Positions 220 to 2,098 of a stretch of DNA of 64,000 bases are shown here, one piece after another. The stretch lies in sequence record KY963424; one strand, 5' to 3'. The notes below the pieces were generated by a model that was not told the DNA's origin, searched no databases, and worked only from the letters and a program-made list of their open reading frames with translations. Position 1 is the first letter of the stretch, and each line of letters begins with the position of its first letter. A program made the translations under genes and the position numbers. The DNA comes from Shigella phage SSP1.

Positions 220-248
220 TTGCTTTCTCTCTTATTTATTGTTATAAT
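220..248 (+). promoter_or_regulatory. T5 early-type sigma70 promoter (TTGCTT-N17-TATAAT)
   Basis: -35 TTGCTT 220-225, -10 TATAAT 243-248, 17-bp spacer, conserved leader ATAAATTAATGAGAGGG before ATG 279. Confidence 0.75.
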
Positions 249-856: not shown

Positions 857-953
857 AATTTAGGAATTAAGACTATGCGTCCAGGAAAGTTTAAAAAAGC
901 TAATTGGTCTAAAGAGTATAAAGAATACTTACTTAGTCTAGTAAAACATAACA

Positions 954-1027
954 GTTAGTTGGCAGAGTGGTTATGCACCTCCCTCATACGGAGCGACTAC
1001 AGTGGTTCAAATCCACTACTAACTACC
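954..1027 (+). tRNA. tRNA with CAU anticodon (Met or lysidine-Ile)
   Basis: Acceptor AGTTAGT/ACTAACT, anticodon loop CTCATAC, T-arm AGTGGTTCAAATCCACT, 3-prime CCA. Confidence 0.65.
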
Positions 1028-1065
1028 ATTAAAATAGCTAGAGATAGCTAAATTTAGGAGCAGCT

Positions 1066-1260
1066 ATGTTAACAATTAAAATAATGTCAGCCAAGAATGG
1101 TGAACATATCCATACGGGCAAAAGCGTAAGCTTTAATCCTAGAAATAAGAGATTGGCTATAGTTGGAGTAGATCAAGCCATCTTTTTAAAAGAAGATGAA
1201 GTAGCATACGTCATGAACCAAACTGGTAAGACAGTTTCCGTATACTATGGAAAAGTATAA
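1066..1260 (+). CDS. hypothetical protein
   Basis: ORF with RBS AGGAG upstream. Confidence 0.5.
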   Translation: MLTIKIMSAKNGEHIHTGKSVSFNPRNKRLAIVGVDQAIFLKEDEVAYVMNQTGKTVSVYYGKV

Positions 1261-1302
1261 AGAATAAAGAGCTGAGCCAAATTCTAACATCGGGGAGATC
1301 TA

Positions 1303-1671
1303 ATGAAAGCATATCAAAATCTTAAATCTGGCGTAATTAACCTTGTTCATGAAAATCAGATTATTCAGCTATACTCCGACAATGGTGAACTTAAACAGAA
1401 AGTTCTAGTCGAAGATCTAGAAGGTATCACACCTCACTTTGACCCTGAGGCCTTTCGCATTGTAGATGTGGAAGTGGTTCCTCAAGTCGAGGGTGGTCAG
1501 CACCTAAATGTCAATGTGTTAAGCCGTGATCAGCTTTTGGATGCACAGAAACATCCTGAAAAATATCCTCAGTTGACCATCCGTGTCTCTGGCTATGCTG
1601 TTCGATTTAACGCATTGACGCGTGAACAACAGAACGACGTTATTAGTCGTACATTTACTCAGGCGATATAA
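1303..1671 (+). CDS. autonomous glycyl-radical cofactor (GrcA/YfiD-like)
   Basis: C-terminus [55 protein letters not shown] closely matches the GrcA/PFL glycyl-radical domain (RVSGY radical glycine motif). Confidence 0.8.
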
Positions 1672-1752
1672 TGGGGTTTGGATACGATTTCTCCCAGCTA
1701 CGCAAGGTAGTCGAGCAAACTCCATTTATCTCCCAAGTTTTAGGAGAAATGT

Positions 1753-2052
1753 GTGGATCGAGCATTAAGACGCCATCACCGGCAACGTGTGAAAAACAAT
1801 CGCAAAAAGTATTGGACAGTCTTCCCACATGAAGAAAGTCCTAAGCGGTTAGGCATTATCACTACCACTCCTTGCATCTGTTCTTGTTGGATGTGTGGGA
1901 ATCCTCGCAAATACTATAAGAATAGTAAAGCAGGTATGAAAATCTCGGAGATTAAAAAGATGGATGCAATGATTATGGGCATCACCTTTACAGGTGGTAT
2001 CTCTGATGAATTCGACGGTTTTGTAACTCAGGATATTGTCGAAATTATCTAA
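1753..2052 (+). CDS. hypothetical Cys-rich protein (GTG start, uncertain)
   Basis: ORF with CxCxC..CxxC cluster; non-ATG start in track. Confidence 0.35.
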   Translation: MDRALRRHHRQRVKNNRKKYWTVFPHEESPKRLGIITTTPCICSCWMCGNPRKYYKNSKAGMKISEIKKMDAMIMGITFTGGISDEFDGFVTQDIVEII

Positions 2053-2061
2053 TTAATAATA

Positions 2062-2098
2062 AACCCCAGCTATTGAATACGTAGTCTGGGGTTTTCTT
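2062..2098 (+). terminator. putative intrinsic terminator
   Basis: Stem AACCCCAG/CTGGGGTT followed by TTTCTT. Confidence 0.5.

What the first reader, a model, noticed from the sequence alone, without database searches (positions are those of the whole stretch)
1303..1671. Phage-encoded GrcA-like glycyl-radical spare-part protein
The C-terminal 60 aa are nearly identical in pattern to the glycyl-radical domain of GrcA and pyruvate formate-lyase, including RVSGYAV. Such a protein could rescue oxygen-damaged pyruvate formate-lyase in the host. It is an auxiliary metabolic gene among the tRNAs.
Basis: partly seen in the sequence, partly recalled or inferred. Interest (0 to 1): 0.45.

Follow-up and report, generated by a model that had tools for sequence, protein, structure and literature searches.

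The report
Phage T5-type GrcA spare-part gene
This is a real, well-conserved gene of a T5-like phage for a small protein that can probably replace the oxygen-broken radical end of the host's pyruvate formate-lyase, but it is an ordinary, already annotated gene whose phage T4 counterpart was tested in 2001.

Summary
Window 1303..1671 (+) is an intact 122-aa ORF. Its last 60 residues are 78-85% identical to the glycyl-radical domains of E. coli GrcA, PflB and TdcE. The PFL-activase recognition heptapeptide RVSGYAV is exact, and the radical glycine is G97.

The window is a T5-like phage, 98.5% identical to Salmonella phage Spc35. The gene is the ortholog of T5.056. About 430 T5-like genomes carry it at 90% protein identity or more, and 28 distinct orthologous sequences give dN/dS = 0.07. 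Over its full length it is 51% identical to the T4-type vs.6/Y06I protein, which has been shown to rebuild oxygen-cleaved pyruvate formate-lyase.

It lies at the far edge of the T5 tRNA cluster, about 275 bp after tRNA-Ile and tRNA-Met. A promoter and a terminator annotated in T5 are conserved around this block. I found no phage activase, so the host enzyme PflA would have to install the radical.

Function in T5-type phages has not been tested. The finding is already known: GenBank records annotate it as "autonomous glycyl radical cofactor", "pyruvate formate-lyase" and similar names. Interest is low.

One minor new point: the T5-type gene is an old, diverged lineage, whereas the T4-type tail is 94% nucleotide-identical to host grcA.

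The parts
1303..1671 (+). CDS of 122 aa plus stop: T5-type autonomous glycyl-radical cofactor (GrcA/Y06I-like), ortholog of T5.056
   Evidence: ORF list. Pfam PF01228 E=4e-18. phrog_1209 over the full length, E=8e-47. PDB GrcA 6OWR E=2e-29. T5.056 lies at the same position in NC_005859. dN/dS = 0.069 over 28 distinct sequences.
1292..1297 (+). Shine-Dalgarno GGGGAG, 5 nt upstream of the ATG
   Evidence: Read directly from the sequence.
1303..1482 (+). N-terminal half (residues 1-60). It is a diverged version of the GrcA/Y06I N-half. Its likely role is helping the protein bind damaged PFL.
   Evidence: MKAYQxL and R-x-V-x-V-E-x-x-P are shared with T4-type and jumbo-phage proteins, and there is a loose pattern match to bacterial GrcA. 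dN/dS = 0.11. AF2 predicts a beta-sheet here (pLDDT 83-88), and does the same for a bacterial GrcA control. The role in binding cleaved PFL is inferred from YfiD truncation data (PMC8683613).
1483..1668 (+). Glycyl-radical domain (residues 61-122), the part that would dock into the PFL barrel
   Evidence: Aligns with PflB 698-758 and GrcA 52-126. 78-85% identical to the GrcA, PflB and TdcE tails. dN/dS = 0.017. In the fold search, 41-44 aligned columns superpose on the glycyl-radical domains of other glycyl-radical enzymes at 0.9-1.6 A; the full-domain alignments to YfiD/6OWR and PflB give rmsd 7.1-9.8 A.
1582..1602 (+). RVSGYAV, the heptapeptide recognised by the PFL activating enzyme. The G97 codon is at 1591-1593 and is the predicted radical site.
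   Evidence: Positions. Invariant in all alignments. The RVSGYAV peptide is the PFL-AE substrate analogue crystallised in PDB 3CB8 (PMC10665898).
780..856 (+). tRNA-Ile (GAU), upstream in the same transcription unit
   Evidence: ARAGORN. Rfam RF00005, 64.7 bits.
953..1028 (+). tRNA-Met (CAU), the last tRNA of the cluster
   Evidence: ARAGORN. Rfam RF00005, 52 bits.
220..248 (+). Promoter-like site TTGCTT-17-TATAAT with a TG extension. It is homologous to the annotated T5 promoter P11 and is the likely start of the unit that includes the gene.
   Evidence: Aligned with the T5 P11 feature, 90% identity. Coordinates. T5 annotation. Activity in this phage is inferred.
2061..2098 (+). Rho-independent terminator, homologous to the one annotated in T5 downstream of T5.055
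   Evidence: Aligned with the T5 terminator feature. Hairpin followed by a T-run folds at -17.1 kcal/mol. The simple scan missed it, presumably because the hairpin has a bulged stem or a loop longer than the scan's 8-nt limit.
1066..1260 (+). Flanking small ORF (64 aa, phrog_3909, unknown function) between tRNA-Met and the gene. No evidence links it functionally to the gene.
   Evidence: Absent at this position in T5, where T5.056 follows tRNA-Met by 13 bp.
1671..1832 (+). Downstream small ORF (53 aa, phrog_31464). Its ATG overlaps the stop codon of the gene (TAATG). Function unknown.
   Evidence: Annotated in TrudiRoth. Not similar to T4 vs.5, the gene that follows vs.6.

Best explanation
[quoted passage not shown] The proposed mechanism has five steps.

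1. The gene is transcribed with the last tRNAs of the T5-type tRNA cluster, from a P11-like promoter to a conserved terminator. This is inferred from conserved T5 regulatory features.
2. The host radical-SAM activase PflA abstracts a hydrogen from G97 within the exact RVSGYAV recognition motif and creates a glycyl radical. This is inferred. No phage activase was found.
3. When oxygen has cut host PflB (or TdcE) at its own radical glycine, the C-terminal 60 residues of the phage protein dock into the barrel in place of the lost fragment. They re-supply the radical to the Cys418/Cys419 pair, restoring conversion of pyruvate to acetyl-CoA and formate. This has been shown for T4 Y06I and E. coli YfiD and is inferred here.
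4. The N-terminal half helps the protein bind damaged PFL, as in YfiD. This is inferred.
5. The benefit to the phage would be continued fermentative acetyl-CoA and ATP supply in a micro-oxic gut host. I reason from general knowledge that a T5-infected cell can no longer replace its own PflB or GrcA, because T5 shuts off host expression and degrades host DNA. This step is inference.
For: - Domain identity: Pfam Gly_radical E=4e-18. NCBIfam best hits are GrcA, GrcA3 and GrcA2, then the PFL C-terminus. PDB GrcA E=2e-29 and PflB E=2e-26, with residue-by-residue alignments.
- Conserved residues: G97 and RVSGYAV are intact. 44 invariant columns are shared with GrcA, PflB, TdcE and T4-type vs.6.
- Homology to the tested protein: full-length match to T4-type vs.6, 51% identity, E=7e-39; phrog_1209 over residues 1-122. 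Y06I and YfiD are experimentally validated spare parts, and the YfiD N-half is needed for binding (PMC8683613).
- Activase recognition: the RVSGYAV peptide is the PFL-AE substrate analogue (PMC10665898).
- Selection: dN/dS is 0.069 overall, 0.11 for the N-half and 0.017 for the C-half. All 30 T5-type copies examined are intact at 122 aa.
- Distribution: tblastn finds it in 1582 phage records, 431 of them at 90% identity or more.
- Structure: 41-44 aligned columns of the AF2 model superpose on the glycyl-radical domains of other glycyl-radical enzymes at 0.9-1.6 A.
- No PflA-like gene in the window or in 49 kb of Spc35.
- Conserved promoter and terminator.
Against: - No experiment exists for any T5-type protein. 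My literature searches found none.
- The protein falls below NCBIfam's GrcA equivalog cutoff (118 against 170 bits), and only residues 54-121 match that model.
- The N-half is strongly diverged from both GrcA and T4 vs.6, so binding or target preference could differ.
- The benefit to the phage is untested.
- As I recall, the T5 tRNA region can be deleted in the laboratory without loss of viability. I did not check this here.
Confidence: 0.8

Rival explanations
1. Decoy or inhibitor. The protein soaks up host PflA activity, or occupies PFL without restoring catalysis, and so redirects pyruvate flux or blocks formate production rather than repairing PFL.
For: The N-terminal half differs strongly from GrcA. 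The score is below the GrcA equivalog cutoff. No functional data exist for the T5 type.
Against: Every residue invariant in catalytically competent GrcA, PflB and TdcE tails is kept, including the radical glycine. The C-half has dN/dS = 0.017, which points to selection for the complete native interface. The full-length homolog Y06I restores activity. A decoy would not need to keep G97 and the whole docking surface.
Confidence: 0.06
2. Spare part for the phage's own class III ribonucleotide reductase (NrdD) rather than for host PFL. One GenBank record even names it 'ribonucleotide reductase subunit'.
For: The 98.5%-identical relative Spc35 encodes an NrdD-like anaerobic RNR, which is also a glycyl-radical enzyme. 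NC_048145 and Citrobacter phage YZU-L1 carry the annotation 'ribonucleotide reductase subunit'.
Against: The phage NrdD tail has a different motif (RVCGYLG). tblastn with the NrdD protein finds no match at the window ORF. The ORF is 78-85% identical to PFL-type tails. NCBIfam ranks only formate-lyase and GrcA models at the top.
Confidence: 0.03
3. Decaying remnant of a captured host pflB/tdcE 3' end with no function.
For: The domain is a copy of the end of a host gene. A few truncated copies exist: SUT_E420 matches only residues 1-66, and P0033 is 67 aa.
Against: All 30 T5-type copies examined are intact at 122 aa, with dS = 0.38 but dN = 0.026. The gene has a good ribosome-binding site and is conserved across phage families. 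Nucleotide identity to host genes is only 71-74%, with saturated third positions, so it has been maintained for a long time.
Confidence: 0.02
4. Same biochemistry but a different use. The protein supplies a radical domain to intact, non-activated or radical-quenched PflB or TdcE, boosting PFL-type activity under fully anaerobic conditions rather than repairing oxygen damage. It may prefer TdcE.
For: [quoted passage not shown] The fragment after the glycine matches TdcE at 24/26 positions, against 20/26 for PflB and 19/26 for GrcA.
Against: The differences among the tails are few and peripheral. No data distinguish the possible targets. This is a variation of the main explanation rather than a true alternative.
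Confidence: 0.09

Closest known systems
Bacteriophage T4 Y06I (gene vs.6), autonomous glycyl-radical cofactor
   Same: Same size (120 against 122 aa) and the same two-part architecture. The N-terminus MKAYQxL is shared. Identity is 51% over the full length, and both belong to PHROG family phrog_1209. Both are encoded by a virulent enterobacterial phage with no accompanying PFL activase.
   Different: The T4-type tail is 100% amino-acid and 94% nucleotide identical to E. coli grcA. The T5-type tail is 80% amino-acid and 71-74% nucleotide identical to any host paralog and is closest to TdcE. The genomic context differs: T4 has it between ipIII/e and regB/tk, T5 at the edge of the tRNA cluster. 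The neighbours are not homologous. The T4 protein has been tested biochemically; the T5-type protein has not.
E. coli GrcA (YfiD), PDB 6OWR
   Same: A small stand-alone protein with a C-terminal glycyl-radical domain. 74% identity over 74 residues. RVSGYAV is identical. The predicted secondary-structure pattern of both halves is the same.
   Different: The first ~50 residues of the phage protein are not detectably aligned to GrcA by BLASTP or HMMER. It scores 118 bits against the 170-bit TIGR04365 equivalog cutoff. It lacks the two-residue 'VR' insertion before EGGQH. It is phage-encoded, so it is presumably under phage rather than host control.
C-terminal glycyl-radical domains of PflB and TdcE (host formate-lyases)
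   Same: 78% (PflB) and 85% (TdcE) identity over the last 60 residues. The radical glycine is at the equivalent position, PflB G734.
   Different: The phage protein lacks the ~700-residue catalytic barrel with Cys418/Cys419. It cannot be a formate-lyase on its own. GenBank names such as 'pyruvate formate-lyase', '2-ketobutyrate formate-lyase' and 'acetyltransferase' over-state what it is.
T5.056 of phage T5 and its orthologs in Demerecviridae
   Same: Orthologs: 92% identity with T5 (L028), in the same position after tRNA-Ile and tRNA-Met. 99.2% identical to the Salmonella phage PK7 protein.
   Different: Nothing of substance. This window has one extra 64-aa ORF between tRNA-Met and the gene.

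Membership tests
Glycyl-radical domain proteins (Pfam PF01228) | Significant match to the Gly_radical profile above the gathering score | tested here: met
   66.3 bits against a cutoff of 22.2, E=4.1e-18, residues 62-103.
Glycyl-radical domain proteins (Pfam PF01228) | Conserved radical glycine in the R-V-x-G-[FWY] fingerprint | tested here: met
   RVSGYAV at residues 94-100, with G97. Invariant in 30 T5-type copies and 55 diverse homologs.
[quoted passage not shown] | Score at or above the curated equivalog cutoff over the full length | tested here: not met
   118.2 bits against a cutoff of 170, and only residues 54-121 align. The protein is therefore not a strict GrcA equivalog by NCBI's rule, although it is the best-scoring family.
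[quoted passage not shown] | A small stand-alone protein (~120-130 aa) made of an N-terminal half plus a PFL-type C-terminal radical domain, with no catalytic barrel | tested here: met
   122 aa. The C-terminal 60 aa are 78-85% identical to the GrcA, PflB and TdcE tails. AF2 predicts the same order of secondary-structure elements as for a GrcA control.
[quoted passage not shown] | Radical installed by PFL activating enzyme (PflA) | not testable with these tools
   Only indirect evidence: the exact heptapeptide RVSGYAV used as the PFL-AE substrate is present.
[quoted passage not shown] | Restores catalysis to O2-cleaved PFL | not testable with these tools
   Shown for YfiD and T4 Y06I (PMC8683613). 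Inferred here from homology.
Phage Y06I/vs.6 family (phrog_1209) | Full-length profile match including the phage-type N-terminus | tested here: met
   phrog_1209 E=7.9e-47, residues 1-122 on profile positions 1-121 of 121. BLASTP to T4-type vs.6 covers residues 1-122 at 51% identity.
Pyruvate / 2-ketobutyrate formate-lyase (as many GenBank records name it) | Complete ~760-aa enzyme with the catalytic barrel and Cys418/Cys419 | tested here: not met
   Only PflB residues 698-758 are matched. TIGR01255 scores 84 bits against a cutoff of 994. The ORF is 122 aa.

The most novel reading that the evidence does not exclude
The T5-type protein may belong to an old lineage of spare-part proteins that circulates among phages. 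Jumbo-phage and other phage homologs share features such as '...DAQ(K/E)(H/N)PE...' and 'DVISRTFT'. This lineage would be independent of the recent host-derived tail seen in T4-type phages. Its TdcE-like tail and diverged N-half could give it a different target or mode of action: preferential service of TdcE, or of intact but radical-less PFL after host shut-off. The phage would then control a host radical enzyme rather than merely repair oxygen damage.
Probability: 0.12. Interest if true: 0.4.

Novelty: already known. Interest (0 to 1): 0.15.

Why it matters
The gene is a tidy example of a phage carrying a 'spare part' for a host central-metabolism enzyme. Together with the class III ribonucleotide reductase found in close relatives, it indicates that T5-like phages are adapted to replicate in oxygen-poor or oxygen-fluctuating gut hosts. 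That could matter for phage therapy and for studying phage fitness under realistic, non-aerated conditions.

It adds nothing new in kind. The gene has been annotated in T5 (as T5.056) and in hundreds of relatives, and the T4 counterpart was characterised in 2001. The practical value of this check is mainly corrective. Database names such as 'pyruvate formate-lyase', '2-ketobutyrate formate-lyase', 'acetyltransferase-related protein' and 'ribonucleotide reductase subunit' are misleading. 'Autonomous glycyl-radical cofactor (GrcA/Y06I-like)' is the appropriate name.

Tried and rejected
- Conserved gene neighbourhood between T4 and T5. The genes next to T4 vs.6 (vs.5 and the upstream ORF) and those next to the window gene have no similarity and fall in different PHROG families, all of unknown function. 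There is no operon-level clue.
- A phage activase. tblastn with E. coli PflA against the window and against 49 kb of Spc35 gave only noise, E>=1.
- NrdD as the target. The phage NrdD tail is unrelated to the ORF.
- Literature on the T5-type protein. Searches for 'T5-like' plus 'pyruvate formate-lyase' plus 'phage', and for 'glycyl radical' plus 'Demerecviridae', returned nothing. An AMG-oriented search returned irrelevant papers. Two searches failed because a term was too short. Kammel & Sawers 2022 (PMC9112899) is not held.
- An ordered N-terminal domain as a distinguishing feature. AF2 predicts a confident beta-sheet for residues 1-55. The same prediction came out for a bacterial GrcA-type control, whose N-half is reported disordered by NMR. 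This is therefore neither a difference nor reliable evidence of order. Foldseek found no PDB match for the N-half.
- The consensus promoter/terminator scan around the gene was no better than shuffles and missed the terminator. Alignment with the annotated T5 features was more informative.
- Rfam found nothing in the window other than the two tRNAs.

Full report
**1. What is in the sequence**

Window 1303..1671 on the + strand is an ATG-initiated ORF of 122 codons ending in TAA. A GGGGAG Shine-Dalgarno sequence lies at 1292-1297, five bases before the start codon. The translation ends ...[45 protein letters not shown] is residues 94-100, and the glycine is G97 (nt 1591-1593).

**2. Is it more than chance?**

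Yes, by a wide margin.
- Pfam Gly_radical (PF01228): E=4e-18, 66 bits against a gathering score of 22.
- NCBIfam: the three GrcA models rank first (TIGR04365, 118 bits), followed by the C-terminus of formate C-acetyltransferase.
- PDB sequences: GrcA/YfiD (6OWR) E=2e-29 and PflB (1H16 and others) E=2e-26, with near-gapless alignments from residue ~50-61 to 121.
- Anchored on [10 protein letters not shown], the last 60 residues are identical at 48/60 positions to E. coli GrcA, 47/60 to PflB and 51/60 to TdcE. The fragment from the glycine onward is the piece PFL loses on oxygen cleavage. It matches TdcE at 24/26, PflB at 20/26 and GrcA at 19/26.
- In a six-sequence alignment (window, a T5-like ortholog, T4-type vs.6, GrcA, PflB tail, TdcE tail), 44 columns of the domain are invariant, including E63-V72 and L91-N103.
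- Across 55 diverse homologs, 31 columns remain invariant, including T92-A99.

The sequence passes it.

**3. What genome this is**

The first 25 kb of the window are 98.5% identical to Salmonella phage Spc35 (Tequintavirus, Demerecviridae). Hundreds of T5-like Salmonella and Escherichia phages match at 85-97%.

The ORF is the ortholog of T5.056 of phage T5. That gene is annotated 'putative acetyltransferase-related protein, identified by match to InterPro IPR001150' and sits directly after tRNA-Ile and tRNA-Met.

In the window, ARAGORN and Rfam find only two tRNAs, Ile(GAU) at 780-856 and Met(CAU) at 953-1028. In relatives, the other ~20 tRNAs lie further upstream, beyond the window start. So the gene is at the distal edge of the tRNA cluster rather than in its middle.

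The T5-annotated promoter P11 is conserved at window 220-248 (TTGCTT-17-TATAAT with a TG extension; 90% identity over the aligned region). The T5-annotated rho-independent terminator is conserved at 2061-2098 and folds at -17.1 kcal/mol. By homology the transcription unit is:
- P11-like promoter
- ORF 279-572
- ORF 572-778
- tRNA-Ile
- tRNA-Met
- ORF 1066-1260
- the grcA-like gene
- one or two small ORFs
- terminator

That these sites are active in this phage is inferred.

**4. Is it a working gene?**

Thirty T5-type copies (the window plus 29 loci from IMG/VR) are all intact at 122 aa. They comprise 28 distinct DNA sequences and 17 distinct proteins. Nei-Gojobori estimates over 378 pairs are:

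| Region | dS | dN | dN/dS |
|---|---|---|---|
| Whole gene | 0.38 | 0.026 | 0.069 |
| N-terminal 60 codons | 0.43 | 0.047 | 0.11 |
| C-terminal 62 codons | 0.33 | 0.006 | 0.017 |

Both halves are under purifying selection, and the radical domain extremely so. A tblastn search of 50,697 phage records finds the protein in 1582 records. Of these, 431 are at 90% identity or more (T5-like phages). About 1000 are at ~51% with full coverage (T4-like Straboviridae). The rest include jumbo phages and others. The 'decaying fragment' idea is refuted.

**5. Relation to known proteins**

The closest characterised relative is T4 Y06I, gene vs.6. A T4-type vs.6 protein from phage IME537 aligns over residues 1-122 at 51% identity (E=7e-39) and shares the N-terminus MKAYQxL. 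PHROG family phrog_1209 matches the whole window protein (E=8e-47).

According to PMC8683613, Knappe and co-workers (Wagner et al. 2001) showed three things. E. coli YfiD and T4 Y06I are activated by the PFL activating enzyme. They form a complex with O2-cleaved PFL. That complex has restored activity. As of 2021 these were the only two validated spare-part proteins.

The same paper reports that the YfiD N-half (residues 1-60) is disordered in solution but is needed for binding to cleaved PFL and for efficient activation.

The heptapeptide RVSGYAV is the substrate analogue used with PFL-AE, including in the crystal structure 3CB8 (PMC10665898). It is present unchanged in the window protein.

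Against bacterial GrcA, only the C-terminal ~70 residues align by BLASTP or HMMER. The TIGR04365 score of 118 bits is below the 170-bit equivalent cutoff. By NCBI's rule the protein is not a strict GrcA equivalog.

A wider alignment nevertheless shows a loose shared pattern in the N-half across bacterial and phage proteins: M-x-[AG]-x-Q-[IV]..., G-[TS]-I-[FW]-[LI], A-[RK]-[IVC]-[IV]-x-[SA]-K, and R-[ED]-V-x-[IV]-E-x-x-P.

AlphaFold2 predicts the same succession of beta-strands in the N-half for the window protein (pLDDT 83-88) and for a bacterial GrcA-type control (pLDDT 80-86). The YfiD N-half is disordered by NMR, so I treat this only as support for a common architecture, perhaps one that folds on binding. 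It is not a distinguishing feature.

In the Foldseek search, 41-44 aligned columns of the model's radical domain superpose on the glycyl-radical domains of other glycyl-radical enzymes at 0.9-1.6 A, and YfiD (6OWR) is the top hit. The longer alignments to YfiD and PflB (58-65 columns) give rmsd 7.1-9.8 A. The N-half has no significant PDB match.

**6. Mechanism (shown or inferred)**

- Shown here: the sequence features, conservation, selection, genomic placement, and absence of a PflA-like gene. tblastn with E. coli PflA gave only noise (E>=1) in the window and in Spc35 20-69 kb.
- Established for homologs: activation by PflA, and reconstitution of cleaved PFL.
- Inferred for this protein: host PflA generates a radical on G97. 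Residues ~61-122 insert into O2-cleaved PflB or TdcE in place of the lost C-terminal fragment, and the radical is relayed to Cys419/Cys418. The N-half assists docking. The phage thereby keeps pyruvate flowing to acetyl-CoA (and ATP via Pta-AckA) when the host experiences oxygen pulses.
- From general knowledge: T5 shuts off host gene expression and degrades host DNA early, so the infected cell cannot renew PflB or GrcA. This would explain why a phage copy is useful.

The close relative Spc35 also carries an NrdD-like anaerobic ribonucleotide reductase. That fits a phage adapted to anaerobic hosts.

**7. Rivals**

- Decoy or inhibitor of PflA/PFL. Unlikely, because the complete native interface and the radical glycine are under very strong constraint, and the full-length T4 homolog restores activity.
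- Spare part for phage NrdD. The NrdD tail has the motif RVCGYLG and shows no similarity to the ORF.
- Pseudogene. Refuted.
- Service of intact, radical-less PFL or TdcE rather than oxygen repair. Possible. This is a variant of the main model and cannot be distinguished here.

**8. Novelty**

Already known. The gene is annotated in T5 (T5.056), in Spc35, and in hundreds of GenBank records. The names used include 'autonomous glycyl radical cofactor' (for example Salmonella phage SP33), 'pyruvate formate-lyase', '2-ketobutyrate formate-lyase', 'putative formate acetyltransferase' and 'ribonucleotide reductase subunit'. A 99.2%-identical protein is deposited for Salmonella phage PK7. The concept of a phage-encoded GrcA-like spare part dates from 2001. 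No paper on the T5-type protein was found in the searchable library, so direct evidence for this subfamily is still missing.

**9. A small point that may be new**

The two phage lineages have different histories.
- The T4-type vs.6 tail (last 60 codons) is 100% amino-acid and 94% nucleotide identical to E. coli K-12 grcA, with 85% identity at third positions. This implies a recent exchange of that domain with the host.
- The T5-type tail is only 71-74% nucleotide identical to grcA, pflB or tdcE, with third positions at 45-50%, which is close to saturation. It carries residues shared with jumbo-phage homologs (LS[RK][DE]QL.DAQ; DVISRTFT).

This suggests an old lineage maintained within phages. 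It does not change the functional reading.

**10. Verdict**

The finding is ordinary and already annotated, and interest is low (0.15).

Noticed in passing
L002:4184-4360 (T4-type phage IME537 vs.6) compared with L003:2070-2249 (E. coli K-12 grcA): The last 60 codons of T4-type vs.6 are 100% amino-acid and 94% nucleotide identical to E. coli grcA (third positions 85%). The window's T5-type gene is only 71-74% nucleotide identical to grcA, pflB or tdcE. The T4 lineage seems to have exchanged its radical domain with the host recently.
   Followed up: partly
window 1066-1260 (+): A 64-aa ORF (phrog_3909, unknown function) sits between tRNA-Met and the grcA-like gene. In phage T5, T5.056 follows tRNA-Met by only 13 bp, so this is a small insertion or deletion difference among T5-like phages.
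   Followed up: partly
window 1671-1832 and 1753-2052 (+): Two overlapping small ORFs in different frames lie downstream of the gene, and each matches its own PHROG family (phrog_31464 and phrog_4499). The first starts on the stop codon of the grcA-like gene (TAATG). In TrudiRoth the second is annotated from a later start, so the true start of the second ORF is unclear.
   Followed up: no
L039:32693-34567 (Salmonella phage Spc35, outside the window): The 98.5%-identical relative encodes an NrdD-like class III ribonucleotide reductase with the radical motif RVCGYLG. That stretch has no annotated NrdG activase and no PflA-like hit. These phages therefore appear to carry two glycyl-radical proteins that would both depend on host activases.
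   Followed up: partly
proteins P0080, P0111, P0112, P0116, P0120: Some GrcA-type proteins from metagenomes or genomes have the typical enterobacterial GrcA N-half ([23 protein letters not shown]...) but a PflB- or TdcE-like extreme C-terminus ([24 protein letters not shown]). This suggests gene conversion between grcA and pflB or tdcE.
   Followed up: no
window 1303-1482 (residues 1-60); models mc961ee32f641 and mb09faf79edbe: AlphaFold2 predicts a confident beta-sheet (pLDDT 80-88) for the N-terminal half of both the phage protein and a bacterial GrcA-type control. NMR reports the YfiD N-half as disordered in solution. It may fold on binding to PFL, or this may be an AF2 over-prediction.
   Followed up: partly
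window 2061-2098 (+): A conserved T5-type rho-independent terminator was missed by the consensus terminator scan, presumably because its hairpin has a bulged stem or a loop longer than the scan's 8-nt limit.
   Followed up: yes
GenBank records listed: The same 122-aa protein is named in at least seven different ways across phage records. Several names ('pyruvate formate-lyase', '2-ketobutyrate formate-lyase', 'acetyltransferase', 'ribonucleotide reductase subunit') describe enzymes it cannot be on its own. A few records hold truncated copies (SUT_E420 with residues 1-66 only; YZU-L1 with 67 aa).
   Followed up: no
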